A DNA stretch of 64,000 nt from an uncultured Nitrospiraceae bacterium (GTDB lineage Bacteria; Nitrospirota; Thermodesulfovibrionia; Thermodesulfovibrionales; SM23-35). Below the pieces are notes generated by a model. The model ran no database searches. It was not told the DNA's origin and was given only the letters and a program-made list of their open reading frames with translations. A program made the position numbers and the translations under genes. Below are positions 27,641-42,186 of the stretch, one piece after another. Within the stretch, counting starts at the first letter, position 1. The number at the start of each line of letters is the position of its first letter. Where the stretch lies: contig CAVSHB010000002.1 of the NCBI GenBank assembly GCA_963727775.1, positions 239,428 through 303,427 of the forward strand, written 5' to 3'.

Positions 27641-27700
27641 AATGTGTTCTACTCCCTATCGAGTCCTGTGTTGTCGCGAAAATCTTTCCATTGATAATTT

Positions 27701-27766: not shown

Positions 27767-27787
27767 TGTTCTTGTAATTATGCATGT

Positions 27788-28297
27788 TTAATAATTCGAA
27801 ACACCCCATCCCCAAAGTATTGCCGGTATTTCAACTGCAAGGAGACCTCCAATGAAGGAGAACGCATTTGCAACAAAGCTGTATGCCATGCTTCTCAAAA
27901 GTGATGGCGCAGCTTCAGGTTGTCGTGTAAGTCTTGGTGATCGAAGAAGGTAAAAAACCGCTATCCCCTCGGCTAAGGTGACTGCGATTTCGCCGACAAT
28001 TCCCACAATCGTCACGCCAACGAAGTTTTGCATTGCAACTATTGCAGTCATAAGAAGGATAAATGTGACGGTTGTAATCACTGTCCACACCCCTACAAAT
28101 CGCCAGAAGTAGGGATTTGTTCCCTTTCCCAATCGCGCCACAATGACCCCTTCCATCGGCAGTAGGATGGGTACAACAACAAGTGGAACCGGGTTCAAGA
28201 TTATTGGATCAGCGAAAGCGATGGACGGGCAAAGCATACTTGCCACCAGCAATATAAAAAGATCCCTAAGGTTGTTTTTTGATTCGTGATTATTCAT
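27788..28297 (-). CDS. hypothetical polytopic membrane protein
   Basis: Five to six hydrophobic helices. Confidence 0.45.
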   Translation of the reverse strand: MNNHESKNNLRDLFILLVASMLCPSIAFADPIILNPVPLVVVPILLPMEGVIVARLGKGTNPYFWRFVGVWTVITTVTFILLMTAIVAMQNFVGVTIVGIVGEIAVTLAEGIAVFYLLRSPRLTRQPEAAPSLLRSMAYSFVANAFSFIGGLLAVEIPAILWGWGVSNY

Positions 28298-28606
28298 CCT
28301 TCCATCTACGGCTACAAAGTCGTCCTTTCGGTTATAACCTGTACAATTATATCATTCTCATGTGGTCTCAGCTTCGGGAGGCAGTCTTACCCGTGGTAAC
28401 TTTCGAGAATAACCGCATGTCTGTATTCTTCTTTCGAGCGAAAAGTTTGCTGAGAGCTCATCTGGCAGCAAATTGGAAAATGCCTACAGAGTATAATAGT
28501 TTGGTAAAGACGATGACGACATTACATATTTTTTTATCCGTCCTTCTGGCTACTGACCCTTGGTCAGTCAGTTCCATTCGGGTTTCGAAAACATAAGACG
28601 AATGTA

Positions 28607-29452
28607 TTGATTATGACAAGAAGACTTAAGTTTCTACTAATCATCATGATATTGTTGGGCATATATATTGGCCGGAGCTATTGGCCATTTAAAGAGCAAA
28701 TAAAGATAGAGACGGCTCATTACACTATCTATTCTACAGCGACGCAGCAGCAAACTATTCTTATCGGAGAAGCAAGTGAAAGCTTGTACGCTGCCTATAC
28801 CGATTTTTTCAAAGATATGATAGATGCAAAAGAGCACAAGGGACGGCTAAGGATGAGGCTTTATAAGGATAGAGATGAGTTTAAGGCACACAACTGGAGT
28901 GCTCCCTGGGCAGAAGCATTCTATCACAACCCGTATTGTTATGCCTACTATCCCGAAAGTGAGGCCAATCCATATCACTGGATGATACACGAGGGAACCC
29001 ATCAATTAAACCGGGAAGTTGCCCATTTTAAGGTGCCCGAATGGATTGATGAAGGCTTAGCAACATATTTCGGTTCAAGCAAAATAAGAAATGGTAGATT
29101 GCAACCCGGTGAAATCGATGTGAACACGTATCCTATATGGATACTACAAACTATTTCCTTGACGGGCAACCTTCAGAAGGATATCAACAATAACAAGATA
29201 ATTCCTCTTCGCGCCCTAATTACAGGGACAGGAGGGCCTAATATCATCAGGCATTTTAATCTATACTACGTCCATTATTGGAGCCTGACACACTTTTTAT
29301 TTCACTATACGAACGGAAAATATTCTGATGGCTATAAAAGTTTGATCCGCGCAGGCGGCACATTGGAAGAATTTGAGAAGAGAATCGGATCGGTAGATCG
29401 GATACAGAACGAATGGTATGAGTACTTGCGACAGAGCGTGTCAGAAGTGTAG
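28607..29452 (+). CDS. putative zinc metallopeptidase (HExxH; DUF1570-like)
   Basis: N-terminal TM anchor; WMIHEGTHQLNRE (HExxH). Confidence 0.5.
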   Translation: MIMTRRLKFLLIIMILLGIYIGRSYWPFKEQIKIETAHYTIYSTATQQQTILIGEASESLYAAYTDFFKDMIDAKEHKGRLRMRLYKDRDEFKAHNWSAPWAEAFYHNPYCYAYYPESEANPYHWMIHEGTHQLNREVAHFKVPEWIDEGLATYFGSSKIRNGRLQPGEIDVNTYPIWILQTISLTGNLQKDINNNKIIPLRALITGTGGPNIIRHFNLYYVHYWSLTHFLFHYTNGKYSDGYKSLIRAGGTLEEFEKRIGSVDRIQNEWYEYLRQSVSEV

Positions 29453-29543
29453 AAAAAATGAAAGAGCCCTAACAGTTAAGTCATGCCAAATATTAACTTA
29501 AGGTTGACATCAGTATAGAAGCGCGAGAGTCTTGTCTGTTCCC

Positions 29544-29610
29544 ACTTGTACTGAACATGATTATATCAGGTTTCGGTGCCGTTGACTTCAACAAGGAAGG
29601 ATTATTGCCT
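29544..29610 (+). repeat. 65-bp module-spacer repeat, copy R3 (between convergent genes)
   Basis: CTTGTACTGAACATGATTATATCAGGTTTC..ACAAGGAAGGATTATTGCC. Confidence 0.75.
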
Positions 29611-29703
29611 ATCAGGACTCTCTGGAATACTACGTTTCTTTCACCCCGTAAGGCGCATAGCTTTTTTATCAAAGAGACCTGATAACCTTTAAAAACAGAA
29701 AGA

Positions 29704-30687
29704 TCAGAAAACATTCACTTTGAATGTCACTACTTTTGCAGGCGGCACATCCTTCTCCCAAGGTCTTATATATCTAAAGTTGATTGCTGTTTTACCCTTC
29801 CCGGTAGCCTCGAAGAGCCAAACTTCTTTACCTCCTGCACCGATAAGCCCGGTTTGCGATTTCCTATATTTGTTGCGCACTAACCTGATAATTGTGCTCT
29901 CTTTTGGGCTGATCATCTCCCAGTGATATCCTGTGGTGACGTTTGAATCAAGAACAAGCGTAAAATGTTGACCAGGGGCTACTTCAATCTCCAAGCTGGG
30001 ATTGCTGAACTCAAGTATATTCGATGCGACATTAATCACTTTTGCTCCGACAAAAGTACCGGAACTTTCGAAATCAAAGGCGATCAGTACAGTACCGAGA
30101 AGTTCACAAGCGTGACAGCCATTCTGGAGGCGGTAGGCAGCAACAAACCTCTTTCCCTTGTTTAAAAGATCTTCGCCCTTCACACAAGGGGCGTCATATC
30201 TGTCACCAGGCCAGAGATTCACTTTAGGAAAATTGTGGGCTATTTGTTCATACAGTTTGTGCTTCGTTAGGTCCACATTCTTTAAAATGTCATTATCGTC
30301 GATGTCGATGACCGACGGGTTTCCGTTTACGAGATAACATCCGTAGTTCTCATTCGCCCTAAATGGATAAAAAACTTGAGCGATATCCACCGCTCCGTCC
30401 CTTTGGAAGGCTGTTATATAGGCCGTATTTCCTATGTGTTTGGTAAAGACGATAGCCTCGCATGGGGCCCCTGAATCTTTCATCACGGTGACGAAACAAG
30501 CCCCAAAGTCCTTCACCGCTTCCATTGAACAGCGCTCAAGCACTTGTTGCCTAAAGGAACTACCGGGATTCCAGACTACTTCCGGACCTATCTGCTGATT
30601 TTCGGCTGAGGCGACACCAGTCAGGAAGCATATTATTATAAATATCTGGGCAATCAAACTCTTTATAGGCTCCCCTTTTTCTGACAT
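29704..30687 (-). CDS. hypothetical secreted protein
   Basis: Signal peptide; 327 aa; no family recognised. Confidence 0.5.
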   Translation of the reverse strand: MSEKGEPIKSLIAQIFIIICFLTGVASAENQQIGPEVVWNPGSSFRQQVLERCSMEAVKDFGACFVTVMKDSGAPCEAIVFTKHIGNTAYITAFQRDGAVDIAQVFYPFRANENYGCYLVNGNPSVIDIDDNDILKNVDLTKHKLYEQIAHNFPKVNLWPGDRYDAPCVKGEDLLNKGKRFVAAYRLQNGCHACELLGTVLIAFDFESSGTFVGAKVINVASNILEFSNPSLEIEVAPGQHFTLVLDSNVTTGYHWEMISPKESTIIRLVRNKYRKSQTGLIGAGGKEVWLFEATGKGKTAINFRYIRPWEKDVPPAKVVTFKVNVF

Positions 30688-30774
30688 CGCTTTAAGAATC
30701 TAAACCTCCCCCAAAAGACACTTCAAAACTCATTTCTCATTTTTTAAATCCAGCAAGACATTTCACCCATTCCA

Positions 30775-30840
30775 GTTGAACTGCGCACAATCATAGCACC
30801 TTTGAATGGTGTTACCTACAGGAAGGAAGCTTGCGCATAT
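30775..30840 (+). repeat. 65-bp module-spacer repeat, copy R4
   Basis: GTTGAACTGCGCACAATCATAGCACC..CCTACAGGAAGGAAGCTTGCGCATAT. Confidence 0.75.
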
Positions 30841-30989
30841 ACCTTCATCTTTTTTCACAATGCGTCTTTCGCCCCGTAATAAAAAGGGTATTTTTACGAG
30901 CGGATTCCCCGCTGGAACACCTCGGTTAGATGTAGTCATCATCGCCCAATGTCAGGGCTGACCCCATTCCCCTGTTACTTACAACAAGC

Positions 30990-33011
30990 TTATGAATCTG
31001 TTGATTTCTTGATATCAGTCTTGCCCTCAGAATCAATCTTCATACCAGTGAGTGCAATAGCCTGCGTAAGAACTGTCGCGAGCCCTTCAGATGCACCGCC
31101 ACTTCCGATCGTAAGAATATCAGGCATAATCTTAATCTTACCTGCAGAGATATGTTTTGCGAGCTCGATAGCCATAATAGCCTGTGGCCCGATGGCTGTC
31201 TTCTGCTTTTCGTAGGCTTCTGCGGTAGCCGTACCGATTGATTCGATTGCCCTGGCATCACCTTCGCCCTTCAATTTTGCGCTTTCCGCATTACCTTCGG
31301 CAAGTGTAACTGTTTCTCTTTTCTTCTGGTCGGCAACTTTGACGGCGATCTCGGCCCGAACAAGTTCCGGCTGTTGGTCGGCAGTGGCCTTTGTCTTTTC
31401 CATCTCAATTCTTGTAACTTCAGCCTTCTGCTGTTCCTTGTATTGTTCAGTCTGTTGCTGTGCAATAATTTTCTTTGTCTGTGTATCCATCAGCTCCTGG
31501 GGAAGTTTAATTTGACAAATGAGGACCGACACGCACTCAACATGATATTTTTCAAGTTCCAGCCGGGCCCTTGTTTCAGCCTTTGTCTGTTCTTCTTGTC
31601 TGTCCTGCATAAAGTTCATGGCTGAAGTGGTAGAAGCCTGATTTCTGAAGCTGGAATCAATCATTGGGTGAATAACGTGAAGAATGAGATTGTCAATCGA
31701 ACCGACTTTCGCCACCATATAGGGAGCTTGGTCCGGTCTGACTCTTACAACTACCTTAACGGATACTCCAATAGGGAACCCGTCTTTTGAAATAACACTC
31801 AATGGGTCAAACCTTGTCTCTTTTGCATCATCCCAGTCTATCGTTATGTTTGTTGTGTCGATGATATATGGCATAAAGGCTAATCTGTTAAGATAGTATT
31901 TGCCGGGGCCGGCCACTTCTTCCTGGATGCCCCGATATCCTTTGGGAACCACATATTTCTCTTTGCCTTCTTCTTCGGTCGCCCCCATTTGAGTTGAGCC
32001 GAGTCTTCTCTTCATTTCAGATGTTGGCTCTTCACCCACATTTGAAACGACAACTGCAACCTGTCCACGCTCAACAACTGCAACGTCATCAAACGCAACA
32101 TTAAACATTAACGGGTTTATATAATATGTACCGGGCTTTAGAACATCAAGCTGAGGTCCACGCTGGCCGCCGCCTTTAAGGAATGAATTGGCATCCTGAA
32201 AATCGGAGTGTCCGGCGACTGACTTGGCAACATATTCTTTGTCAGGAAGCGGATCACCATCCTTGGCGATAACCAAACCGACTTTTGCAGACTCAATCAC
32301 TGCGGCTGGCTCAGTTGCCACCTGGAATAAATGAGTGTTGATACGATAAGTCCCTGGGAGAAGGATATCGATCTGTGGGCCTTTTTGCCCGCCATTCGCA
32401 AGAAACTTTTCACCAGCTTCAAAGTTATGATGGTCAGGCACACTTACTGCCAACAGTCTACCGGCAGCTATAGGATTGCCATCCTGCGATGTAACAACTC
32501 CCACCTGACCTTTTTCGATAACAACTGCCTGAGCAATTGATACCTTAAAGAGGTATGGATTTATTCTGTATTTACCAGGCGGGAGGATGTCAATCTGCGG
32601 ACCTTTCTGCCCCCCGTTTTGTAAGAACGCCTCCCCATCCTGAAAAGAATTATGACCCTGTACCACCTTTGCAAATATTTTACCGGGAGGGATTGCGCTG
32701 CCATCGACTGATTCGATAAGACCGACCTGCCCGTCCATAATCTCTACAAACTCGCTCTTTTTTGCAGTATAAATAAACGGAATAAGAAAATGCATTCCCG
32801 GCCCCAGCGTCCTTGCCTGAATCCCGACTTCGTTGTTCATGGCAACGACCCTGCCCTGTGGCATCTTCCTGCCAAACCATCTCCGTTCAATAAGGGCAAT
32901 CTCTTTACCACCGACAATAACAACTGATTGATATGCCAGGATTAAGGCGATAAATCCTATAATTATTCCCCCTACTGAAAGCACGCCGATCAAATGCGAA
33001 AGAATTTCCAT
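30990..33011 (-). CDS. flotillin-like SPFH/band-7 domain protein (673 aa) with internally repeated N-terminal segments
   Basis: N-terminal TM. Repeated GxxxxxQNGGQKGPQIDILxPGxYRINxxLF blocks. C-terminal flotillin-type coiled-coil (EQ-rich). Confidence 0.7.
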   Translation of the reverse strand: MEILSHLIGVLSVGGIIIGFIALILAYQSVVIVGGKEIALIERRWFGRKMPQGRVVAMNNEVGIQARTLGPGMHFLIPFIYTAKKSEFVEIMDGQVGLIESVDGSAIPPGKIFAKVVQGHNSFQDGEAFLQNGGQKGPQIDILPPGKYRINPYLFKVSIAQAVVIEKGQVGVVTSQDGNPIAAGRLLAVSVPDHHNFEAGEKFLANGGQKGPQIDILLPGTYRINTHLFQVATEPAAVIESAKVGLVIAKDGDPLPDKEYVAKSVAGHSDFQDANSFLKGGGQRGPQLDVLKPGTYYINPLMFNVAFDDVAVVERGQVAVVVSNVGEEPTSEMKRRLGSTQMGATEEEGKEKYVVPKGYRGIQEEVAGPGKYYLNRLAFMPYIIDTTNITIDWDDAKETRFDPLSVISKDGFPIGVSVKVVVRVRPDQAPYMVAKVGSIDNLILHVIHPMIDSSFRNQASTTSAMNFMQDRQEEQTKAETRARLELEKYHVECVSVLICQIKLPQELMDTQTKKIIAQQQTEQYKEQQKAEVTRIEMEKTKATADQQPELVRAEIAVKVADQKKRETVTLAEGNAESAKLKGEGDARAIESIGTATAEAYEKQKTAIGPQAIMAIELAKHISAGKIKIMPDILTIGSGGASEGLATVLTQAIALTGMKIDSEGKTDIKKSTDS

Positions 33012-33085
33012 GTAACCTCCATTTTTATTGGTTTCCTTTAGCTTTGTTGCTTATCATTAATTTATCATGATTCATATTTAATTCC

Positions 33086-33146
33086 GGTTGTACTGAGCAT
33101 AATTATATCAGGTTTCCCTACAGTGGGTTTCAGGAAGAAGCAAAGA
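33086..33146 (+). repeat. 65-bp module-spacer repeat, copy R5
   Basis: GGTTGTACTGAGCATAATTATATCAGGTTTC..GGTTTCAGGAAGAAGC. Confidence 0.8.
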
Positions 33147-33151
33147 ATCTA

Positions 33152-33334
33152 TTATTTGAGCCCGATCTTTTTCCAAAACATAAGTCCAGGGCAAATTCCT
33201 GTTATCCCTGCAAGGGTAAATAAGCCAACTAGAATATAAAGGAACCAATGAACCTTATCAAAACCTGTTAACCATATCCCTATAAAAATCAAGAAAGCGA
33301 CTGTTATAAATTGTGCTCTCAGAGCTGAAGACAT
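33152..33334 (-). CDS. DUF2892-type small membrane protein (YgaP-like, GxCP motif)
   Basis: 60 aa; two TM helices; GICPG motif. Confidence 0.5.
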   Translation of the reverse strand: MSSALRAQFITVAFLIFIGIWLTGFDKVHWFLYILVGLFTLAGITGICPGLMFWKKIGLK

Positions 33335-33359
33335 AGTAAGCCTCCTTTGTTATTTTCCT

Positions 33360-33406
33360 TTTGTACTCAAAACAATTATATCAGGTCTTCGAGTAGTGGA
33401 CTACAG
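33360..33406 (+). repeat. 65-bp repeat copy R6, left half (split by IS110-family insertion)
   Basis: TTGTACTCAAAACAATTATATCAGGTCTTC..GGACTACAG ends exactly at the IS junction. Confidence 0.7.
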
Positions 33407-33971
33407 CTTGCTATATTGTAGTTAATGATGAGATCGATATATCTTCCAGGTAAGAATTGTTTATCCGGCAAAGGAAAGAAGGAGGAGATATTTATGAAAG
33501 GGTTACGGACGAAAAGAGTAAACATGATAAAGGAAGGGGCATTGATAGTAGCGATAGACATTGGTATGGCAAGTAACCATGGGTGCTGTGTGGCAGCAGA
33601 CGGGAGGAGCACCAAGACATTCAAGTTTGATAATACAAGAGAAGGACTTGATAGATTGTGGAACATGGTACTTGCGAGCAAAACCAGATTTCAATGCAAT
33701 GAGGTCATTATAGGATATGAGTCAACCGGACCTTATGGAGAGCCGTTGGTTCACTATCTCAAGCAGAAACCAGCAACGATCGTACAAGTAAACCCACTGC
33801 ACACGAAGAGGATGAGAGAGATCAATGACAACTCTCCATTAAAGACTGATCGTAAGGATCCCCGGGTAATCGCGGATGTCATACGGATAGGGCACGCCTT
33901 AAGCGTCGTGGTCCCAGAAGGTGCTGCCGCCTATTTGAGAAGAATAAATAATGCACGGGAGAGACATATTA

Positions 33972-35592
33972 ACCCGAAAAATGCGTTTGCTATAGGCATA
34001 CCTATAGAGTCAAGCCTATCAAGGCATTGGCTGATTTGTCGATATAAAAGCTAATACTGATGCTGTTTCTTGTTCCACCTCCTGAAAATTATGTTCTTTT
34101 TATCTAAATGCAGTGCAATTACCAAAACTGGGGGGAAAGTATTGTCCCACGCGGTTAAAGAGGTAGCGCAGTTTTGATCGTACTTTCTGCGTAAAGACAG
34201 AAATCCGCAATACAGGTTTCCTTCCATCCCATCCTAATTGGGCTGGAAGGACAAGATACTTGTACCGTAAGGTTTTCAAACGTTCTGTCTTTTCTTTTTG
34301 ACCGAGTATCTGATGCCTGAACAGGACAAACAGATTGTAGATGAATACCCGAATAAGCATAGCCGCCTCCGTTGAGTAGAAATACTTCATCGAGAACCCG
34401 CCGAGTGCAAAATCCTCTTTCAGTTCCTTGATGGTATTCTCATCGTTCGCCCTATGCCTGCATTGCTTCCATACCTCATATGTAGAATCATGTGAATTGG
34501 TTATCCATACGCTATAACGATAATGCCCTGTATCAAACTCATCTCCGAAAAGAGACAACTCTTTTCCCATCGCGTGCGGTCTCTTCTTGACATCCTGGCG
34601 CACTGCAATAAACCTCCTGTCGATTATCCACTCTACATGCTGGAAGAAGAACTCAGTGATCCATATCCCTTCTTCTACCTGTGCCCAGTTTTGTTGTGCG
34701 TAGATTATCCTCTGCAGCGGACGATATAGGCGAGCAGCTATGATATATACTAATTCTCTCTTCTCAAGCAGTTCGATGAACTCCCTAAGATAAAATCCAC
34801 TGTCTGCAATAATGCCCTTGATATCGATATGACCGTTGATCCTCTGCCATGTGGATTCAAAAAATCCAATAATGTTGTTCCATGACATCACGTTGCCGGG
34901 GCGGTTCCAAAGATTTATCACATACTTGTTTCTGTTAAGAAATGCCAGAAGCGGGCTGTGGCTACCACGGCCCTTCTTCTTCGGGTTATATCCCCTCTTG
35001 ACTCCCTCCTGTTTTCCGTATCGCTCAAGGACTGTAGAATCGAACGTCAACCAGTCCTCTTTGAGCTCTTTCCAGGGGATCAATCTCTTCAAGTATCCCC
35101 ATAATCCCTCCGACATCTCTTCCACTTCCTTCAGTTTTCTGATCTTCCTGAAAAGCCTGCCCAATGTCGTCGAGGCGATAGGAAGCCTCTTCACTGCAAA
35201 AAGATCGGTGAAAATCTCCTGCCAACCAAGATAAAGTAGATGAGAAAACCTGCTGCCTCCCGCATAGATCAGAAGGATGTATGCCAATACCTTGCTGTAT
35301 ATCCCCATTCCATTGGGTGAACTCTCATGGATCGGAATCACCTCTTGCAAAATTCCTCTCAATTTGATCTTTTCAAAAAATGCAGCCAATAAACTGAATC
35401 CCCCATATGCCGTCATCTTCTTCTCCGTAAATCCAATCCTTACTTTATTTATTTCGATCTTTGTGCTACATTTTGACTGCATATTTCTATTCTCCTTTCG
35501 TTTAGAGTTGATGGTCGGGTAAACCTATTGATTCTAATACGAAAGGAGAATTTCTTCGGGGATATTATTTTAGGTCAACTGCACTTTTTGGG
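33972..35592 (-). mobile_element. IS1380-family insertion sequence (copy B), 1621 bp, TSD TTAA
   Basis: TTAA at 33968-33971 and 35593-35596. IRs CCCGAAAAATGCG / CACTTTTTGGG. Confidence 0.7.
34100..35482 (-). CDS. IS1380/IS4-type DDE transposase
   Basis: 460 aa; GYNPKKKGRGSHSP...HRANDENTIKELKEDF motifs. Confidence 0.8.
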   Translation of the reverse strand: MQSKCSTKIEINKVRIGFTEKKMTAYGGFSLLAAFFEKIKLRGILQEVIPIHESSPNGMGIYSKVLAYILLIYAGGSRFSHLLYLGWQEIFTDLFAVKRLPIASTTLGRLFRKIRKLKEVEEMSEGLWGYLKRLIPWKELKEDWLTFDSTVLERYGKQEGVKRGYNPKKKGRGSHSPLLAFLNRNKYVINLWNRPGNVMSWNNIIGFFESTWQRINGHIDIKGIIADSGFYLREFIELLEKRELVYIIAARLYRPLQRIIYAQQNWAQVEEGIWITEFFFQHVEWIIDRRFIAVRQDVKKRPHAMGKELSLFGDEFDTGHYRYSVWITNSHDSTYEVWKQCRHRANDENTIKELKEDFALGGFSMKYFYSTEAAMLIRVFIYNLFVLFRHQILGQKEKTERLKTLRYKYLVLPAQLGWDGRKPVLRISVFTQKVRSKLRYLFNRVGQYFPPSFGNCTAFR

Positions 35593-36383
35593 TTAAAGAG
35601 CGGACCGCTCTTCTCAACCAATTACGGCAGTTTGTGTTTCTCATATTCCCAGAATTTGGCCGAATAATAAAGACGATATTCTGCAAAACATCCTTACATA
35701 TACTCAAGAAATATACGACACCGGCAAAGGTATGCAGCGTAAATATAGAGAAACTTGGAGGGGAAATGAGGAGATGTAGCATGGGCAAATTCGGGGTAGA
35801 ACATGCTACGGCGCTGATCAATTATGCAAAGACCACCATCGGTATTCAAGAAGGGTTGGACGGATTAGTTATGGATATACAGCACGCCCTCGTCCAGCTG
35901 GAGATGGTCGATAGTCTCATAGCGGAACTGGAGCACGAGATGGAGACAACCCTACAGCGCATACCCTACAGTCGCAAACTCCTGTCAATCAAAGGGCTCG
36001 GGATAGTAACGGTAGCAGGGCTTATTGGTGAGATAGGCGACTTTACAAAGTTTAAAACGCAGTCTGAGATAGCGAAGCTTGCCGGTCTTGACCTGTACGA
36101 AGTAAGCTCCGGGAAAAGACAAGGACAGAGGAGGATATCAAAGAGGGGCAGAAGCCTGTTACGGAAAATACTGTATTATGCCGCCATGCAGACAATCAGA
36201 AAGAACGGCATTATGCATGAGTACTACCAAAGACTGATAGGCCGGGGCATGAAAAGTATCATGGCGCTCGTTGCAGTATCCAGGAAACTATTGAGGATCA
36301 TATTTGCAATTGTAAGGGATGACACTGAATTCATAATGAATCATGAAGCTCAGAGAAAGGAGGAGATGAGAAAGGCCGCTTAG

Positions 36384-36636
36384 AGTTATAATTCACGTAG
36401 GCGGGGAGATTATCGTTTTCTTCCTTTAAGGCGCAATGCGACCTTCGACTACAGAATACATAACTCCCCGTCGACATTCTAACTCCAATTAAGCAAGGTA
36501 AAAGCGTTCAATACGACTTTCAAATTACAAGGGTTGGGTAGGATGTCACATACAAGATGGGGGATAACCGTCTACGAGAATAGATATTTCTATCTAAGTC
36601 CACATATAAAAATATATCTTGACTGGAATAAACAAG
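36384..36636 (+). ncRNA. candidate IS110-family bridge RNA / seekRNA (3' structured non-coding region of element A)
   Basis: Conserved with element B: GGCGGGGAGATTA...CGACCTTC[variable]TAACTCCCCG...TTAAGCAAGGT. The variable segment GACTACAG equals the left target flank GGACTACAG. Confidence 0.55.
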
Positions 36637-36650
36637 GAAGGAAGCTTGCC
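36637..36650 (+). repeat. 65-bp repeat copy R6, right half (GAAGGAAGCTTGCC)
   Basis: Directly follows the IS110 element A right end. Confidence 0.65.
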
Positions 36651-36661
36651 TATGATTCTGC

Positions 36662-37030
36662 TCAAAACTCATATCCTCTCTTCACCCAATAATGCCAGTC
36701 GGCAACGGCTTCTAGGGTTTGCTCATCTGCTTTCGATACTTTGAGCTGGCGCAATGGAACTGCCAAAGATCGTTTTTGCCAGCTGATCATGACAAACATA
36801 TCATGCTCACACTCCGTTTCCGGGGCCATCTTTGTTACTTCTACTTCCTCACCGATAAGAAGTGGCGATGTTTTTCTTGTAGCAATACACTTCGCTTTGA
36901 ATGGAAATCTCAGTTTGTCTTCGAGGTAATAATACCATCCCAGTGAACGCTCTTCCTCGTTGTAAGCGTCAACGACAATTTCCATGAGAATGCGGTCTTC
37001 TCTAATCTCATCTTCTTTGATTCTCGACAT
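36662..37030 (-). CDS. hypothetical protein
   Basis: 122 aa ORF between repeats R6 and R7. Confidence 0.45.
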   Translation of the reverse strand: MSRIKEDEIREDRILMEIVVDAYNEEERSLGWYYYLEDKLRFPFKAKCIATRKTSPLLIGEEVEVTKMAPETECEHDMFVMISWQKRSLAVPLRQLKVSKADEQTLEAVADWHYWVKRGYEF

Positions 37031-37111
37031 ATTTTGTATAGAATGAAACGCCTCGTTAATAATTGCTCCTTGCTTTTAAGACGCACTTTTGAGTGCCGAT
37101 GGTCTTTCCGC

Positions 37112-37172
37112 AACAATTCCATTCGTACTCAACAGGATTATAGCAAATTCCAACATGCAAGATTTCAGGAAG
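37112..37172 (+). repeat. 65-bp module-spacer repeat, copy R7
   Basis: TTCGTACTCAACAGGATTATAGCAAATTCC..GATTTCAGGAAGGATTGTTGCC. Confidence 0.75.
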
Positions 37173-37360
37173 GATTGTTGCCTCTCCGCTTTGAGTCCGG
37201 TATCATACGTCTTTCGCCACGGAAGAAAAATGGATCTTTTGGTTCTGCCACCTATAATTACGCGGAGGCGACAAAACGTAAAAAGTATTGATTAAAAGTA
37301 AACGGGTAACATGAGCGTCACCCGGAGCGGGCTTTTTTCGCGATTGGGTATACGTACTTG

Positions 37361-37732
37361 TTATGTTTCTGCCTTTGATTCCCAGCCGTAATGCCCGAAA
37401 CCATCTGTTTGATCCTCATGGGCCGGGTTGTCCTCAATACCCGCTGAATATACTGCCACTCGTCCCTCATAAACGTCCGAGACTATGTCAGACACATCAC
37501 GGTAACCGGCCTTCTGTAGTTTCATTGTCATCTCGTTGAAGACTTCGTCATCAGCCCAACCAGTTTTGTTCCGGAGATGCTTGATCTCTTTGATACACCT
37601 CCTGACATCCATGCGCCAGCCTTCCACGGACTTGTTGTGATGGATGAACGTGAGGTGGTCCGATCCTAACCGCAAATCAAATAGCCGGATACCTTGTCGT
37701 GCCAATAACTCATGCAATTTTTTATCATCCAC
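37361..37732 (-). CDS. hypothetical protein
   Basis: 123 aa ORF between R7 and R8. Confidence 0.45.
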   Translation of the reverse strand: MDDKKLHELLARQGIRLFDLRLGSDHLTFIHHNKSVEGWRMDVRRCIKEIKHLRNKTGWADDEVFNEMTMKLQKAGYRDVSDIVSDVYEGRVAVYSAGIEDNPAHEDQTDGFGHYGWESKAET

Positions 37733-37770
37733 TTGACCTTCATCTCCTGTCCATAATATTTATTGATTAC

Positions 37771-37838
37771 CGGTTATACTAAGCACAATTATATCAGGTT
37801 TCAATCTTGCCGGTTTCAGGAAGGAAGCTTGCGCATGG
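37771..37838 (+). repeat. 65-bp module-spacer repeat, copy R8 (near-consensus)
   Basis: CGGTTATACTAAGCACAATTATATCAGGTTTC..CGGTTTCAGGAAGGAAGCTTGCGCATGG. Confidence 0.85.
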
Positions 37839-37866
37839 TATAAATAAGAGCGACCAGATTTCTTTA

Positions 37867-38274
37867 TTAATGGAGACCGTTCTCATTGAAATGTTTTGAA
37901 TACTTCTTGTCAGTTCCAAGGATGTGACTTTGAAGCCAGTCTTTGAGAAAATTCAATATTTCCAACGTGAGAACGAAACCTGATTTTTCTAGCCGCTCTT
38001 TTAAGTCAAGGGCTTTCACTGCGAATTTATCGTGTTCAATCTTATGAGATGGATAACTCGCAAAGTTGAACTTCCGCATATACTTTTCTTCTGTTTCAAA
38101 ATGAGTTTTTGCATAATTAACCATCTTGTTAATTATTTCTTTCTGTGCCTCACGGCCCTTATCTGAAAGCAATGCATCATGTAAAGTATTAACCATTTCA
38201 ACCAACGTTTTATGTTGATTATCAATTTCTTTCACATTAACACTGAAACTATCCGACCACTGGAAAATAGCCAT
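37867..38274 (-). CDS. bacteriohemerythrin
   Basis: [25 protein letters not shown]...H..H..E..H iron ligands. Confidence 0.75.
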
Positions 38275-38437
38275 GTATACGTTCCTCCTTTTTTATTTTA
38301 TCTATCTAACATTATGCCAACTTGGTATTTCTCGATTTCTTGAAATAATATAGCATAGTAAGGAATTACTTGAAAAAGAAAATTACAGAGAAATTTATAA
38401 TAAACATCAAGATGTCCGATGAGAGTTCCTATTAATT

Positions 38438-38502
38438 TGCAAGAGTACTTAACAGCCTCAGCTCGATACTCCCCGCGTTTAGTACAGGAAGGATGCTTGC
38501 CT
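38438..38502 (+). repeat. 65-bp module-spacer repeat, divergent copy R9
   Basis: GAGTACTTAACAGCC...GTTTAGTACAGGAAGGATGCTTGCC. Confidence 0.55.
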
Positions 38503-38656
38503 TTCAGAAATATTCGAAATACTTTCAAAAAGTCTACGTGATGGATAAATCTCCTCGGGTAGTAAGCTTCATCCCGAAGTTTTCATGGGAGGTGCTCACA
38601 AATTTCCCACACTTTCTTTTGATATTTCGCAGCTAATCTTCAACTAGTTGGAACAA

Positions 38657-40573
38657 TTAAGACTTACCTTGGGTCACGCTTGCTATTTTGGTTTTTTTCT
38701 TGATGACGATCTTGTCGGTTGTTAATTTGGATATGTCATCAAGAAATTGCTGTACTTTTTGATATTCTCCGACAGGGATCCGCACCCGTTTATAACGGAT
38801 AATTTCTTTAGCTATGATTTTACTACCTTGAGTGCTATAGTTGCGAGTGTAGGTACCAAAGGCAGTATCTATAGATATTATGATAGGGACGCTAACAGTT
38901 TCATATCCGTCGGGGATACAGAAGTCAATCGTGTTTTCCATCCGAGATTCCTGAGAAACGATTATCGGATACCGTCTCTTGGGCGCTGTAAATAGCTTCC
39001 CTCGTTTAATCGGAGGTAATCCGAACAGCATCATGTCACCGGCCTTCTGGACTATAGTTGGGTCGTCGAATTTCATGGCAAGGGTCATCTGTGAGTATGG
39101 TACATTTTCATTTATCAAATCCGCTTTGAACACGGTTCCGCCTTCTGCTATCGATTTCCCCAATGCAGCCAAAAATTTTTCCCTATCGTCACTGCCGTGG
39201 GCCTTCAATCCCTCGCGCATTATAACAGACCAACTTCGGGGGAAAGTCACCGTCAGATCCACGGAAACGGGAACATCCTCCTTCACTAACACCTTTCCGT
39301 TAATTATCGTTGCCACTTCGCTATCATCCGTGAGTGGTATGGTCGCAAACTCCCCGCCTTGCTCGTTTACAATGAAGGCTCCTTTGCCGGCCAGGGTGGG
39401 CGGTATTTGCTGTACAGGATATCCCTTGAACAACATGTCAGTGTAATATTTCTTTCCTTCAAGATCGAAAGTTAAAATTACATGATCGAAGTAAAAGGGC
39501 ATTGGCAATAGATCTCTGCGATTAAGTTCCGATTGGGTAGACAAAAAGACCGGCCTCGCCTTGATGCCAATTTCGGACAGAATAGCAATTGCCAGTATCG
39601 TTTGGTCTTTACAATCACCATATTTGTTTGAAAAAATCTGATCTGCCGGATGAGGTTCAAAGCCGTGAAACTCTATATGCATCGCCACATACCGGACATT
39701 GTCCTGGATATATTGGATTACAGCCTGTATTTTTTCGGGTACTGTTTTTTTATCAAAAGTAAGTTCTGTAGCTTTTTTCTTCATTTCTGTCGAAACCTTG
39801 ATATTCTTATCAAACAATGGCCACACCCAGGCAGACAACTGCTTCCAATTATCCAATGTCGAAACCGTCAATCTTTTATAGCGTTCTTCCGGGGAGGGCA
39901 TGTTTTGTTCATCTTCGTCCTTATCGAAATTGTCTCCGCGCCATATATAGGTCACCTCATTTTCGGACATTAATACTGTCGGCTTGATCTCGTTATTTAG
40001 GTTCTTGAAATTCAGCTTCATGTCTTTTGGTGCGGTAATCGTATATCGCGCTTCCTTGACAGGACAGAAACACGAGAAACGGAAACTGTCATAGAAGCTG
40101 TTCTCAATAATCGGTTTCTTCGTCACGATTGTCGCCTTCCACTCGATCACGCTTCCGACGACTACATTCGGCATTGTAATTACCTTGATCCGATTATCGC
40201 TGTAAATACCAGAACTCCCGGCAGGGTTGATTTCCTGAATTTTTTCATATTGCCGCTTAGTACCATCAGGCATAATGATGTATGCTTCCAAATCTTTTAT
40301 TTCTTGGCGGCTCTGGTCATAATCTACCGTTATTTCCCCACGGTCTTTTCCAGCCTCATGCTGAATCTTCTCGATAATATGAGTACTTTCTGTAAAGGAA
40401 TAATCTGCGTTGATTTTAATCGAAACTTCCTTGAGAACCGTTATGTAGGGTTCACTCTGGTAACGCTCCTCCCATGCATGATCATCCTCTGCTGCAAAAG
40501 ATATGGAAAACATGCAGAGTGTAAATATGACAATAATCCCTGCTAATTGTATTCCCGTCTTGTGTAAAGCCAT
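38657..40573 (-). CDS. secreted DUF3857-like plus transglutaminase-like (Cys protease core) protein
   Basis: Signal peptide; YGDCKDQTILAIAILSEIG transglutaminase-like catalytic Cys motif. Confidence 0.65.
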   Translation of the reverse strand: MALHKTGIQLAGIIVIFTLCMFSISFAAEDDHAWEERYQSEPYITVLKEVSIKINADYSFTESTHIIEKIQHEAGKDRGEITVDYDQSRQEIKDLEAYIIMPDGTKRQYEKIQEINPAGSSGIYSDNRIKVITMPNVVVGSVIEWKATIVTKKPIIENSFYDSFRFSCFCPVKEARYTITAPKDMKLNFKNLNNEIKPTVLMSENEVTYIWRGDNFDKDEDEQNMPSPEERYKRLTVSTLDNWKQLSAWVWPLFDKNIKVSTEMKKKATELTFDKKTVPEKIQAVIQYIQDNVRYVAMHIEFHGFEPHPADQIFSNKYGDCKDQTILAIAILSEIGIKARPVFLSTQSELNRRDLLPMPFYFDHVILTFDLEGKKYYTDMLFKGYPVQQIPPTLAGKGAFIVNEQGGEFATIPLTDDSEVATIINGKVLVKEDVPVSVDLTVTFPRSWSVIMREGLKAHGSDDREKFLAALGKSIAEGGTVFKADLINENVPYSQMTLAMKFDDPTIVQKAGDMMLFGLPPIKRGKLFTAPKRRYPIIVSQESRMENTIDFCIPDGYETVSVPIIISIDTAFGTYTRNYSTQGSKIIAKEIIRYKRVRIPVGEYQKVQQFLDDISKLTTDKIVIKKKTKIASVTQGKS

Positions 40574-40648
40574 ATACCATTCCTCCTTGGTATTTGATAA
40601 TTAACGGCTCCGCTCCATTATAGCAGATTCTTTTCCGCTAAAGATTTA

Positions 40649-40712
40649 CGGTTGTACTAAACATCATTATGTTAGAGTTCCATGGTGTTTAGAAGAGGAA
40701 GAATGGTTGCCT
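40649..40712 (+). repeat. 65-bp module-spacer repeat, copy R10
   Basis: CGGTTGTACTAAACATCATTATGTTAGAGTTCC..GTTTAGAAGAGGAAGAATGGTTGCC. Confidence 0.7.
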
Positions 40713-40773
40713 CACGCGCCTATGCATCCTTTGTCCTGGAATAAGCGTACCGTTCTATAAATGTCCTGTGAAC

Positions 40774-41226
40774 CTACTTGTTTGCATCTATGTTCTTATT
40801 CTTTAAGACCAATCGGATTGCAACAAGCGTTTTCTTGTTCTCCTCTGTAGGGAAGAGATCGTATGCTTTGGCATAGTTTGCCTCCGCCTCCTTGGTATTG
40901 CCAAGTTCCTGATTCAGGGAGCCAAGCAGTGTATATCCGTAATAGAAGTCCGCATGTGCCTTAATTAGTCTCTGTAACATACCCTGCGCTTTATGGAACT
41001 CCCCTTTATCCAAAAGGCTTCTTGCCTCTTGCCAGGAATCCGTAGATTGCGGCACAACGCTGAGACGGCTCGACATGCGATGTATGAATGGAGTCACCGC
41101 CACAACAGACACAACTAAGATACAAAAGACAATAGTGACTATTATGTACACCTTGTTAACTTTCTTAAATAAAGCCGTCTGATTCTTTAACTCTTCAAGA
41201 ATTTGCCGTTGTATATCTTCATCCAT
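40774..41226 (-). CDS. TPR-repeat membrane-anchored protein
   Basis: TM helix, then TPR-like AYxxLGxxxxxLGN motifs. Confidence 0.55.
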   Translation of the reverse strand: MDEDIQRQILEELKNQTALFKKVNKVYIIVTIVFCILVVSVVAVTPFIHRMSSRLSVVPQSTDSWQEARSLLDKGEFHKAQGMLQRLIKAHADFYYGYTLLGSLNQELGNTKEAEANYAKAYDLFPTEENKKTLVAIRLVLKNKNIDANK

Positions 41227-41248
41227 TGCTCTCTCCTTTACTCCTTTC

Positions 41249-41304
41249 CGATTGTACTACGCACAATTATATCAGGTTTGAATGTTGCGGGTTTCAGGAA
41301 GCAA
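41249..41304 (+). repeat. 65-bp module-spacer repeat, copy R11
   Basis: GATTGTACTACGCACAATTATATCAGGTTTG..GGGTTTCAGGAAGCAATGG. Confidence 0.8.
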
Positions 41305-41330
41305 TGGGGAATTTAGAAAATCAGCGGACC

Positions 41331-41699
41331 TCAAATTCTATCTCTCAATAGAAAAATACTTCCAACGATTAACATGGGAGCACTTATCCTCAAAAAAAAT
41401 TGGAATAATGATTGCAAATCTACAGACGTATAGAATGAAAAAGCAATCAGGGATACAATACTACCTGTGACGAGCCATGATCCACCAATTTTATTTCGGA
41501 AGATTGACAGAATCACCGCAGGCAATGTTGAAATAGGCCCACTTAATATAATAAGCCATGATATCCGGGGTTCGTCTTGCCTGAAAACAAAAATTGCTCT
41601 TGTTCCTAAGAAGAAATGCATAACACCAATGCCGATGCCTACTATAATAATGCCTACATATAATCCTTTTCTCTTAATATCCTTATGATGATTATCCAT
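41331..41699 (-). CDS. hypothetical polytopic membrane protein (start 5 bp from repeat R12)
   Basis: The longest ORF extends into the repeat. The internal Met at 41699 (MDNHHKD...) is the likely start. Confidence 0.45.
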   Translation of the reverse strand: MDNHHKDIKRKGLYVGIIIVGIGIGVMHFFLGTRAIFVFRQDEPRISWLIILSGPISTLPAVILSIFRNKIGGSWLVTGSIVSLIAFSFYTSVDLQSLFQFFLRISAPMLIVGSIFLLRDRI

Positions 41700-41703
41700 A
41701 ATA

Positions 41704-41756
41704 GTCAACACAATTATATCAGGTCTCAAATACGTTTAGTTCAGGAAGGATTAAGC
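41704..41756 (+). repeat. 65-bp module-spacer repeat, copy R12
   Basis: TCAACACAATTATATCAGGTCTC..GTTTAGTTCAGGAAGGATTAAGC. Confidence 0.75.
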
Positions 41757-41826
41757 GGAGATCTTACCGATATTCAGACTCATTTTATACCACACAAAAA
41801 TATGAGGTGAAGGGGATGATTCTTAA

Positions 41827-42186
41827 TTAATTTAATCTCACAATCAAGACATCAGCAACAAGCTCCTTGCCGTTGTTTGCTGACTTCGTTACTTTCTTGA
41901 GAGTGAAATCTTTTCCGCAAACGATTTTTGCAACATCTTCTGTTTTTAGGTTGGAGAACTGTTCTTGAGTTGCCGCCCACGTTACCGGTCCAACAGTTAC
42001 TGCTTTTCCCTCGCAATATCCTGCCACCATTGCGGTAACATTCCCAGCTTTGTTGTCATATGTTGCTCCCAGTCTTCCCGAAACTGTAGAGACAGATGAA
42101 GCTGCATAAGCCAGAGTTGCTCCGATGGAAACCGCTACTAATAACAAAACCATGAATAATAATCTCACGTTGGTCTTTTTACGCAT
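41827..42186 (-). CDS. hypothetical secreted protein
   Basis: Signal peptide MRKKTNVRLLFMVLLLVAVSIGATLAYA. Confidence 0.45.
   Translation of the reverse strand: MRKKTNVRLLFMVLLLVAVSIGATLAYAASSVSTVSGRLGATYDNKAGNVTAMVAGYCEGKAVTVGPVTWAATQEQFSNLKTEDVAKIVCGKDFTLKKVTKSANNGKELVADVLIVRLN

What the first reader, a model, noticed from the sequence alone, without database searches (positions are those of the whole stretch)
33360..36650. Two IS110-family elements are inserted at the same position of the 65-bp element (...CAG|GAAGG...), splitting it
Element A (+ strand) is flanked on the left by the repeat's left half (...GGACTACAG) and on the right by GAAGGAAGCTTGCC, the repeat's right half. Element B (61069-62944, - strand) is flanked in its own orientation by a divergent copy: TTTGTACCAGTATACAGCAATAATTTCAATACATTTCGGCTGCGGAG on the left and TAGAAGGTGTTAG on the right. 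This is the site-specific behaviour expected of IS110/IS1111 elements, which target REPs or attC sites. It confirms that the 65-bp element is a discrete unit that these elements recognise. Both elements sit in the same orientation relative to the repeat.
Basis: seen in the sequence. Interest (0 to 1): 0.6.

Follow-up and report, generated by a model that had tools for sequence, protein, structure and literature searches.

The report
Bridge-RNA IS inserted in intergenic repeat
One of the two IS110-family mobile elements sits at an exact position inside a repeated, promoter-like intergenic sequence, a position spelled out by the guide RNA the element itself appears to encode; the second element is not in that repeat, and the whole picture is normal behaviour for this family.

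Summary
Both elements are IS110-family insertion sequences. Element A (33407-36636, +) is split by a nested IS1380-type IS. Element B (61069-62945, -) is intact.

Removing A rebuilds a full copy of the repeat (profile E = 2e-18). The repeat is really about 80 nt long and has 15 copies in the window.

A-like elements sit at the same repeat column in four other public contigs (L075, L077, L079, L001), so targeting is recurrent.

The cause is very probably an RNA guide. Both elements carry a conserved 3' non-coding RNA with two internal loops; 27 of its 38 base pairs show compensatory changes.
- One loop carries the left-flank sequence plus an AG core, and the complement of the right flank.
- The other loop matches the IS ends.
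- Guide and flank covary across the independent insertions (0 of 5000 shuffles reach the observed match).
- A's guide matches its own site 14 of 14, the best match in the window.

B's restored site scores like random sequence against the repeat profile. B's guide specifies a different target, ATGCGG-AG-GTATCAGGTC.

This is a new member of a known kind.

The parts
33346..33406 (+). Left part of the interrupted repeat copy, ending ...GGACTACAG. The last 8 nt, GACTAC+AG, are the left target plus core.
   Evidence: It corresponds to profile positions 3-61 of the repeat family.
33407..36636 (+). Element A, an IS110-family IS. It is 3230 bp as found and 1606 bp once the nested IS and one TSD copy are removed. 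The restored ORF is 421 aa from the ATG at 33494. The AG core at both junctions makes each boundary ambiguous by 2 nt.
   Evidence: It is 92-93% identical over its full length to L001 and L002 and 91% to L003; L075 carries an IS of the same 1606-bp length.
33494..33972 (+). N-terminal part of the A transposase gene (DEDD/RuvC-like domain), cut at the TTAA.
   Evidence: Pfam PF01548, E = 1.2e-24; junction.
33973..35592 (-). Nested IS1380-type IS, 1620 bp. It encodes a 460-aa DDE transposase (34100-35482), has inverted ends CCCGAAAAATGCG / CCCAAAAAGTGCAG, and a TTAA target duplication at 33969-33972 and 35593-35596.
   Evidence: Pfam PF13701, E = 2.6e-27.
35597..36383 (+). C-terminal part of the A transposase gene (Transposase_20 domain with the SSG motif).
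   Evidence: Pfam PF02371, E = 2.9e-25; the frame is restored.
36398..36553 (+). Predicted bridge/seekRNA of A.
- Target-binding stem-loop: 36400-36472. Its 5' loop strand UUUUCUUC+CU (36416-36425) is complementary to the right flank GAAGGAAG plus core. Its 3' loop strand GACUAC+AG (36447-36454) is identical to the left flank.
- Donor-binding stem-loop: 36473-36547. AGCAAG is complementary to the IS left end CTTGCT. ACAAG is identical to the IS right end.
36637..36654 (+). Right part of the interrupted repeat copy, GAAGGAAGCTTGCCTATG.
61069..62945 (-). Element B, an IS110-family IS of 1877 bp with an intact 420-aa transposase (61574-62836). Its transposase is 45% identical to A's. It has the same end motifs, CTTGCTATATTG ... 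CTTGACAATAATAAACCAG. It carries about 250 nt more than relatives L056/L059 between the RNA and the right end.
61402..61555 (-). Predicted bridge/seekRNA of B.
- Target-binding stem-loop: 61483-61554. The RTG strand GACCUGAUAC+CU is at 61528-61539. The LTG AUGCGG+AG is at 61499-61506.
- Donor-binding stem-loop: 61410-61481.
62946..62992 (-). Left flank of B in B's own orientation, ...TTTCGGCTGCGGAG. It matches B's LTG at 5 of 6 positions plus the AG core. It is not a detectable member of the repeat family.
61041..61068 (-). Right flank of B, TAGAAGGTGTTAGAAACG..., only 28 nt long before an IS1182/IS5-like copy begins. The guide-matching AG+GTGTTAGA lies 6 nt further from the IS end than expected.
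25277..47458 (.). Array of 15 copies of the ~80-nt repeat. Fourteen are on the + strand, upstream of minus-strand genes. One is on the - strand (47387-47458), upstream of a + strand gene. Other copies at 45392, 30761, 38430, 37759, 27690 and 25277 are the next-best matches to A's guide.

Best explanation
**What the elements are.** A and B are two different species (transposases 45% identical) of one clade of IS110-family insertion sequences. This clade encodes a roughly 155-nt bridge RNA (seekRNA) downstream of the transposase gene. The RNA folds into two stem-loops, each with a large internal loop.

**How the target is read (inferred from sequence).**
- In the first loop, the 3' strand carries the sequence of the left target plus an AG core, so it would pair with the bottom strand.
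- The 5' strand of that loop is complementary to the right target plus the core, so it would pair with the top strand.
- The second loop is related in the same way to the IS right and left ends, which would be joined in a circular intermediate.
- The DEDD transposase would then exchange strands at the AG core. This leaves AG at both junctions and no target duplication.

**Element A.** Its guide reads GACTAC-AG-GAAG(R)4. This is the purine-rich end of an ~80-nt promoter-like intergenic repeat. A therefore landed in the one copy that matches its guide perfectly. Close relatives with one- to three-base guide variants sit in other copies of the same repeat at the same column. A is now dead, because a later IS1380-type insertion split its transposase gene.

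**Element B.** Its guide reads ATGCGG-AG-GTATCAGGTC. B sits at a site matching the left guide, and this site is unrelated to the repeat.

**Shown versus inferred.** Shown here: family membership, exact reconstitution of the repeat, recurrence of the insertion column, RNA structure covariation, and guide-flank covariation. Inferred from published work on IS621 and IS1111-type elements: that the RNA is made, binds the transposase and directs strand exchange.
For: **Family membership.** Pfam PF01548 + PF02371 in both elements. NCBIfam 'IS110 family RNA-guided transposase' at 188.7 bits against a cut-off of 140, tested on B. Distant match to the IS621 transposase structure, E = 1e-7.

**Reconstitution.** The restored A site is a full repeat copy, E = 2e-18.

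**Recurrence.**
- The metagenome pattern scan returned three further A-like elements whose left flanks are repeat copies ending exactly at profile position 61 (L077 E = 5e-15, L079 E = 4e-12, L075 E = 2e-10). L075 and L077 are followed by different genes; no gene start lies close to the L079 copy.
- The restored L001 site is also a family member, E = 1e-5.

**RNA structure.**
- Both 3' non-coding regions fold into the same two stem-loops.
- In 33 distinct sequences, 38 pairs are predicted and 27 have compensatory changes.
- 97.9% of cells are paired, against 87.1% in shuffles and 34-48% when partners are slid.

**Guide-target relation.**
- Left guide versus left flank: 87 of 113 positions identical over 19 insertions, against 34.7 +/- 6.5 for shuffled pairings (0 of 5000 reach the observed value).
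- Right guide versus right flank: 136 of 161 Watson-Crick pairs, against 89 +/- 5.6 (0 of 5000).
- The donor-loop 3' strand follows the IS right end: ACAAG, ATAAG or ACCAG.
- Among elements more than 90% identical to A, the guide variants GACTAC, GACTTC and CAGTAC sit at GACTAC, GACTTC and AAGTAC sites.
- A's occupied site is the only 14 of 14 match to its guide in the window, and 7 of the 12 best sites are repeat copies.

[quoted passage not shown] IS1111-type elements have a 3' NCR, with the top-strand match 5' of the bottom-strand match (PMC11187229).
Against: - No expression data. The RNA, its ends and its promoter are predicted only.
- No Rfam family matches it.
- B's right flank does not pair with its right guide in register (3 of 8). 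The matching sequence lies 6 nt further on (7 of 8 with two G.U pairs). This is unexplained.
- Some natural insertions match their guide poorly (L003 3 of 6, L006 2 of 6), so pairing is not the only determinant, or off-target events persist.
- A-clade sites in other phyla share a motif 41-55 nt from the junction that guide pairing does not explain.
- No empty-site allele of either locus was found.
Confidence: 0.85

Rival explanations
1. Both A and B recognise the 65-bp element as a unit and are inserted at the same position of it. On this view B sits in a diverged copy.
For: - B's flank has TTGTAC 46 nt from the junction, as the repeat does.
- It also has CAATAATTTCA, resembling CAATTATATCA, and GAAGG 2 nt after the junction.
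- The right flank shifted by 2 nt gives P = 0.02.
- Both elements share end sequences and an AG core.
Against: - The restored B site gives no nhmmer hit.
- Its local profile score is at the null median (P = 0.585).
- Its anchored profile score gives P = 0.40 (left) and 0.56 (right).
- Weak true members of the family score 33-70 bits against 11.6 for B.
- B's guide loop (AUGCGG-AG; GACCUGAUAC) does not match the repeat at the A position.
- B-like relatives insert in quite different sequences.
Confidence: 0.06
2. Recognition is by protein or DNA structure. The transposase would bind a hairpin or other structural feature of the repeat, as proposed historically for REP or attC targeting. The RNA complementarity would then be incidental.
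For: - IS110/IS1111 elements were long known to target REPs and attC sites.
- A-clade sites in four other loci share an ATTTC-N5-GAAAT palindrome at a fixed 41-55 nt from the junction.
Against: - The repeat has no consensus secondary structure.
- Guide-flank covariation is strong on both sides of the junction, and single-base guide variants track their sites.
- A-clade elements also sit at ...CAG|GAAG... sites without the repeat or the palindrome (L009, L006).
- RNA guidance was demonstrated experimentally for both subgroups of this family (PMC11208160, PMC11187229).
Confidence: 0.05
3. The occupied copies are not independent insertions. On this view the IS was copied together with its flanking repeat by duplication or recombination, or the metagenome contigs are orthologous loci of related strains. 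Recurrence would then be an illusion, and A's position could be a single chance event.
For: - The A-like elements in L075, L077 and L079 are closely similar to A. L075 carries an IS of the same 1606-bp length.
- The first 30 nt of all three match A's left end at most positions.
- These contigs come from unidentified organisms.
Against: - The repeat copies differ in their variable positions, and their guides differ accordingly.
- The downstream genes differ: a cspA-like gene in L075, a 207-aa ORF in L077, and a 60-aa membrane protein in the window.
- A's site is the single best guide match in 60 kb, which chance placement would not give.
Confidence: 0.04

Closest known systems
IS621 and other IS110-group bridge-RNA recombinases (Durrant et al. 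2024, PMC11208160; Hiraizumi et al. 2024, PMC11208158)
   Same: - DEDD/RuvC-like domain plus Transposase_20 domain.
- An RNA with a target-binding and a donor-binding internal loop.
[quoted passage not shown]
- A 2-nt core is included in both and repeated at both junctions.
- No target duplication.
- IS621 also lands in repeated (REP) sequences.
   Different: - Here the RNA lies downstream of the transposase gene, not in the left end.
- The order of the guides in the loop is reversed: the right-target guide is 5'.
- The core reads AG on the transposase strand (CT in IS621).
- The transposase is 420 aa against 326 aa, and is only distantly similar (E = 1e-7, C-terminal part only).
IS1111-group elements with a 3' seekRNA (ISEc11, ISKpn4, ISPa11, ISPst6; Siddiquee et al. 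2024, PMC11187229), including the IS1111-attC group that targets integron attC sites
   Same: - The long non-coding region is downstream of tnp.
- The top-strand-complementary segment is 5' of the bottom-strand-complementary one.
- Each IS, or group of close relatives, has its own target.
- Insertion is in one orientation, into a multi-copy intergenic element.
   Different: - IS1111 transposases are 330-350 aa; these are 420-421 aa, the size range of the IS110-proper branch.
- Clear subterminal inverted repeats of 7-17 bp were not found, only an imperfect terminal CTTG.T.TATT..AGT.
- The target here is not an attC. It has no hairpin, and no integron integrase is nearby.
ISPpu9 / ISPpu10 of Pseudomonas putida (IS110 family, inserted in REP sequences; PMC12288879; Tobes & Pareja 2006)
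   Same: Several copies of one IS, each inserted at a fixed position and orientation in members of an intergenic repeat family.
   Different: The target here is a non-palindromic, promoter-like ~80-nt unit rather than a 35-nt REP palindrome. The host lineage also differs (apparently Nitrospirota).

Membership tests
IS110 family (RNA-guided DEDD transposases) | N-terminal DEDD/RuvC-like transposase domain (PF01548) | tested here: met
   A N-terminal part E = 1.2e-24; B E = 1.4e-22. D22, E76, D119 and D122 are invariant between A and B. Their correspondence to the catalytic DEDD residues is an inference.
IS110 family (RNA-guided DEDD transposases) | C-terminal Transposase_20 domain (PF02371) with a conserved S/T-G motif | tested here: met
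   A C-terminal part E = 2.9e-25; B E = 3.8e-20. SSG is conserved in GLDLYE(V/I)SSG. For B, NCBIfam NF033542 scores 188.7 bits against a cut-off of 140.
IS110 family (RNA-guided DEDD transposases) | No target-site duplication; the same core dinucleotide at both junctions | tested here: met
   AG precedes the left end and ends the right end in A, in B and in every relative that has a flank.
IS110 family (RNA-guided DEDD transposases) | A non-coding end encodes a structured RNA with two internal loops complementary to target and donor | tested here: met
   The structure has 27 of 38 pairs with compensatory changes. Guides and flanks covary. The donor loop matches the IS ends.
IS110 family (RNA-guided DEDD transposases) | Circular intermediate and RNA-dependent transposition | not testable with these tools
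   Needs experiments.
IS1111 subgroup | Long non-coding region / guide RNA downstream of tnp | tested here: met
   A: 253 nt from the stop codon to the right end. B: 505 nt. The left ends are 87 and 109 nt.
IS1111 subgroup | Top-strand-complementary guide lies 5' of the bottom-strand-complementary guide | tested here: met
   the criterion comes from PMC11187229.
IS1111 subgroup | Subterminal inverted repeats of 7-17 bp | tested here: inconclusive
   Only an imperfect, essentially terminal inverted repeat was found.
IS1111 subgroup | Transposase of 330-350 aa, related over its full length to the IS1111 transposase | tested here: not met
   Length is 420-421 aa. Relatedness to the IS1111 transposase itself was not tested, because no reference sequence was available in the tools.
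The ~80-nt repeat family of this window | The restored insertion site aligns significantly to the family profile across the junction - element A | tested here: met
   E = 2e-18, profile positions 3-79.
The ~80-nt repeat family of this window | The restored insertion site aligns significantly to the family profile across the junction - element B | tested here: not met
   No hit. Local profile P = 0.585. Anchored P = 0.40 (left) and 0.56 (right).
   RNAalifold on 14 copies predicts 0 pairs.
   The tyrosine recombinase at 23542-24549 scores 114 bits on TIGR02249 against a cut-off of 265, in two stretches. Its best matches are Xer-type.

The most novel reading that the evidence does not exclude
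The ~80-nt units are not just promoters. On this reading they are the junctions of a cassette-like array: 15 units, one per gene, with functionally unrelated genes, starting 0.7 kb from a Xer-like tyrosine recombinase. That recombinase would assemble the array without IntI or attC hairpins. The A-clade IS110 elements would then be specialised parasites of these junctions, as the IS1111-attC group is of integrons. The fixed-distance motif shared with A-clade sites in Syntrophorhabdus and other Nitrospirota would make such units widespread.
Probability: 0.07. Interest if true: 0.75.

Novelty: new member of a known kind. Interest (0 to 1): 0.3.

Why it matters
- It is a clean natural example of bridge/seekRNA-guided targeting in poorly studied anaerobes (Nitrospirota/Thermodesulfovibrionales, Syntrophorhabdus, Desulfobacterota-type MAGs, Scalindua).
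- The transposase is of IS110 size, while the position of the RNA and the order of the guides are of IS1111 type.
- Elements more than 90% identical differ by one to three bases in the left-target guide, and each sits in a repeat copy, or at a site, carrying the matching bases. This suggests how such elements spread across the variable positions of a repeat family.
- For annotation: the ~155-nt RNA is in no Rfam family, and the target of each copy can be read from the element itself.
- For the repeat: the insertion says nothing about the repeat being a functional unit. It only marks a 16-nt stretch just upstream of a TGnTATAAT motif.

Tried and rejected
- **Integron/attC idea.** Genes and repeats alternate like cassettes and a tyrosine recombinase is adjacent. 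But the recombinase is Xer-like and far below the IntI cut-off. The repeat has neither an RYYYAAC...GTTRRRY arrangement (by eye) nor a hairpin.
- **Structured RNA or REP hairpin for the repeat.** No consensus structure and no Rfam hit.
- **Sigma-70 -35/-10 promoter in the repeat.** The consensus scan does not flag the repeats as a class. Only the extended -10, TGATATAAT, is conserved, and the spacing to any -35-like hexamer is wrong. 'Promoter-like' therefore remains a hypothesis. It rests on the repeat's orientation relative to genes and its position 50-90 nt upstream of start codons.
- **Rfam for the IS RNAs.** Nothing at gathering thresholds, and only noise at E <= 10.
- **Empty-site alleles.** Exact-protein look-ups of the neighbouring genes found nothing on record.
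- **Rescuing B as a repeat member.** Tried a local gapped profile alignment, a junction-anchored gapless score and a 2-nt shift. None gave support. Three of the six metagenome pattern hits (L074, L076, L078) are unrelated IS110-type elements matched by chance.
- **B's right guide against the repeat core.** Its predicted target GTATCAGGTC contains TATCAGGTC, which also occurs in the core of two repeat copies. The neighbouring core and left-target bases do not fit, so I treat this as coincidence (by eye).
Full report
**Observation**

- Element A runs from 33407 (CTTGCTATATTG...) to 36636 (...AATAAACAAG) on the + strand.
- Element B runs from 61069 to 62945 on the - strand.
- Both begin with CTTGCTATATTGT and end with CTTGAC-N4-AATAAAC(A/C)AG.
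- Both are preceded by AG and end in AG. The boundary is therefore ambiguous by 2 nt and there is no target duplication.

Both encode IS110-family transposases.

- Pfam PF01548 and PF02371 match in each.
- For B, NCBIfam NF033542 'IS110 family RNA-guided transposase' scores 188.7 bits against a cut-off of 140.
- B also gives a distant match to the IS621 transposase structure.
- The two proteins are 45% identical, so these are two IS species of one clade.

A's gene is split by a nested 1620-bp IS1380-type element (33973-35592, TTAA duplication). Removing it restores a 1606-bp IS with an intact 421-aa ORF.

**The repeat**

The repeat is real and longer than 65 bp. The repeat finder gives 12 copies. 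An alignment with flanks shows conservation over about 80 nt, including a 3' extension CAGGAAGGAAGCTTGC(G/C)(C/T)ATG. A profile search finds 15 copies between 25277 and 47458 and none elsewhere in the window.

Every copy is oriented with the gene that follows it. The single minus-strand copy precedes the only plus-strand gene of the region. The copies lie a few tens of nt upstream of start codons.

In gene orientation the consensus is GCAAnCnTCCTTC|CTGAA...TTGAAACCTGATATAATTGTG...AGTACAACCGGAAATC.

- It contains an extended -10 motif, TGnTATAAT.
- It has no consensus secondary structure.
- It matches no Rfam family.
- It is therefore not a REP-type palindrome or an attC.
- The neighbouring tyrosine recombinase (23542-24549) is Xer-like and far below the integron-integrase cut-off.

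I call the repeat promoter-like. This is a hypothesis, not a result.

**Element A is in the repeat**

Joining A's flanks gives a copy that aligns without gaps to the others. It scores E = 2e-18, within the range of the intact copies.

The insertion is recurrent.

- I scanned the metagenome collection for the repeat core, followed at the right distance by AG plus the IS left end.
- Three hits are A-like elements (L075, L077, L079). Their left flanks are significant repeat copies ending exactly at profile position 61, the same column as in the window.
- L075 and L077 have different downstream genes, among them a cspA-like gene in L075.
- L075 holds a complete 1606-bp element followed by GAAGTTAT.
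- The 93%-identical element L001, from a Nitrospiraceae MAG, also sits in a significant copy (E = 1e-5). Its 3' extension, GAAGGAAGCTTGCGCATGG, is the same as in the window's repeat.

**Element B is not in the repeat**

- The restored B site gives no nhmmer hit, even with filters off.
- A gapped local profile alignment scores 11.6 bits. The null median is 11.9 (P = 0.585). Weak true members score 33-70 bits.
- A gapless score anchored on the junction gives P = 0.40 for the left side and 0.56 for the right. Only a 2-nt shift to line up GAAGG reaches 0.02.

**Mechanism**

Both elements have a long non-coding region after the transposase gene: 253 nt in A and 505 nt in B. Each folds into the same two stem-loops, and each stem-loop has a large internal loop.

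The genome scan gave 73 related loci from Nitrospirota, Syntrophorhabdus, 'delta proteobacteria', Scalindua and others. All but one of them carry the same ~155-nt region.

In an alignment of 33 distinct sequences, the consensus structure is well supported:

- 38 pairs are predicted, and 27 have compensatory changes.
- 97.9% of cells are paired, against 87.1% in shuffles and 34-48% with slid partners.

The loop strands vary between elements while the stems are conserved.

*First loop (target).*

- The 3' strand equals the left flank plus AG. Examples: A GACUAC-AG against GGACTACAG; L001 CGACUUC-AG against CGACTTCAG; L009 CAUUAC-AG against CATTACAG; L056 UUCGU-AG against TTCGTAG; B UGCGG-AG against CTGCGGAG.
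- The 5' strand is the reverse complement of the right flank plus core. Examples: the A clade UUUUCUUC-CU against GAAG....; L056 UCACAGACC against GGTCTGTGA; L016 ACCUAACC against GGTTAGG.
- Over 19 insertions the left guide matches 87 of 113 positions. Shuffled guide-flank pairings give 34.7 +/- 6.5, and 0 of 5000 reach the observed value.
- The right guide forms 136 of 161 Watson-Crick pairs, against 89 +/- 5.6 (0 of 5000).

*Second loop (donor).*

- The 5' strand AGCAAG is complementary to the IS left end CTTGCT.
- The 3' strand follows the right end: ACAAG, AUAAG or ACCAG where the IS ends in ACAAG, ATAAG or ACCAG.

This is the architecture published for bridge RNAs. [quoted passage not shown] The 3' location and the guide order are those reported for IS1111-type seekRNAs (PMC11187229).

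**Consequences for the finding**

- A's guide specifies GACTAC-AG-GAAG(R)4. The occupied site is the only 14 of 14 match in the window, and 7 of the 12 best-scoring sites are repeat copies.
- Elements more than 90% identical to A carry the guide variants GACUAC, GACUUC, CACUUC and CAGUAC. Most sit at matching sites: GACTAC, GACTTC (two loci), GGACTTC and AAGTAC. L003, with guide GACUUC at an ACATTA site, matches only 3 of 6. So the variable positions of the repeat just left of the junction are tracked by the guide.
- The element reads about 16 nt at the purine-rich end of the repeat, just upstream of the TGnTATAAT motif. It does not read the unit as a whole.
- A-clade elements in other genomes use ...CAG|GAAG... 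sites that are not members of this repeat.
- B's guide specifies ATGCGG-AG-GTATCAGGTC, which is unrelated to the A position of the repeat.
- Other members of the clade each sit in their own multi-copy intergenic elements. Examples are ...CACCGCAAAG|ACGCAAAGGACGCAGAG followed by a hairpin in 9 of 10 copies in one MAG, TTTCGTAG|GGGAGGGG...CCCTCCC in another, and a Scalindua repeat. Targeting repeats is therefore a trait of the clade, and the mechanism explains why each species has a different target.

**Unexplained**

- B's right flank pairs with its right guide at only 3 of 8 positions in register. An AG followed by GTGTTAGA, which pairs at 7 of 8 positions with two G.U pairs, lies 6 nt further on.
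- Either 6 bp (TAGAAG) were added at the right junction, or B sits at a site matched mainly by the left guide.
- A B-like copy, L057, lacks 2 nt at the same junction compared with its sister copies.
- A-clade sites in L002, L003, L007 and L008 share ATTTC-N5-GAAAT 41-55 nt from the junction. The window repeat has GATTTCCGGTTGTAC at the same offset. Guide pairing does not account for this.

**Comparison and novelty**

- The system works like IS621-type bridge recombinases and IS1111-type seekRNA elements.
- Membership in the IS110 family is met on every sequence criterion tested.
- Membership in the IS1111 subgroup is mixed. RNA position and guide order fit. Transposase length (420 aa against 330-350) does not. 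Subterminal inverted repeats are not clear.
- Site-specific insertion of IS110-family elements into intergenic repeats (REP, attC, transposon ends) is well known, and the RNA-guided mechanism was published in 2024.
- This is therefore a new member of a known kind, of modest interest.
- Its useful features are the single-base guide-target tracking among near-identical elements and an RNA that is absent from Rfam.

**Verdict**

The best explanation is RNA-guided insertion, with A targeted to the repeat, B targeted elsewhere, and A later inactivated by a nested IS. Confidence is about 0.85.

Noticed in passing
window 33973-35592: A 1620-bp IS1380-type IS is nested inside element A's transposase gene. 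It has a 460-aa DDE_Tnp_1_4 transposase on the minus strand, a TTAA duplication, and inverted ends CCCGAAAAATGCG / CCCAAAAAGTGCAG. It leaves A without a functional transposase while A's RNA region stays intact. A second, different IS1380-type transposase lies at 25424-26953, next to the first repeat copy.
   Followed up: partly
window 6437-8155, 42599-44317, 59326-61044: Three near-identical ~1.7-kb IS1182/IS5-like copies. Each has a 475-aa transposase, inverted repeats GAGTCTGTCGGACTT, and CTAG on both sides. The third copy ends 28 nt from B's right end, so little native sequence remains on that side of B.
   Followed up: partly
window 25277-47458 and 23542-24549: There are 15 copies of an ~80-nt non-palindromic repeat, roughly one per gene. 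The genes are functionally unrelated: hemerythrin, CcbP, a YegS-like kinase, SPFH, TPR proteins, a transglutaminase-like protein, an aspartyl protease and a chagasin-like inhibitor. All copies are oriented with the downstream gene. The array starts 0.7 kb from a Xer-like tyrosine recombinase. No copies occur in the other 40 kb of the window. It looks like a promoter module (TGATATAAT core), but the cassette-like layout is odd.
   Followed up: partly
L002, L003, L007, L008 (left flanks, 41-55 nt from the IS junction); window repeat positions GATTTCCGGTTGTAC: A-clade insertion sites in other Nitrospirota and in Syntrophorhabdus are not members of the window's repeat. They nonetheless share an ATTTC-N5-GAAAT-like motif at the same distance from the CAG|GAAG junction as the repeat's left-end motif. 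This is unexplained.
   Followed up: no
window 61041-61068 (B right flank); L057 versus L056/L059: The sequence matching B's right guide lies 6 nt further from the IS end than expected, with TAGAAG in between. A B-like copy in another genome lacks 2 nt at the same junction. This may point to imprecise right-junction formation in this clade.
   Followed up: partly
window 61088-61400: B carries about 250 nt more than its closest relatives (L056/L059) between the bridge RNA and the right end. The origin of this segment is unknown. L016 and L028 also have long tails.
   Followed up: no
L029-L035, L066, L069; L046-L060; L037, L038, L065: Other species of this IS clade sit in their own multi-copy elements. 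One MAG has a CGCAAAG-repeat plus hairpin element in 9 of 10 copies. Another has a GGGAGGG...CCCTCCC hairpin. Scalindua has a conserved repeat of its own.
   Followed up: partly
window 63183-63413; L075: A HigB-like toxin gene lies about 240 nt from B's left end. In metagenome locus L075, the same repeat family with an A-like IS precedes a cspA-like cold-shock gene.
   Followed up: no
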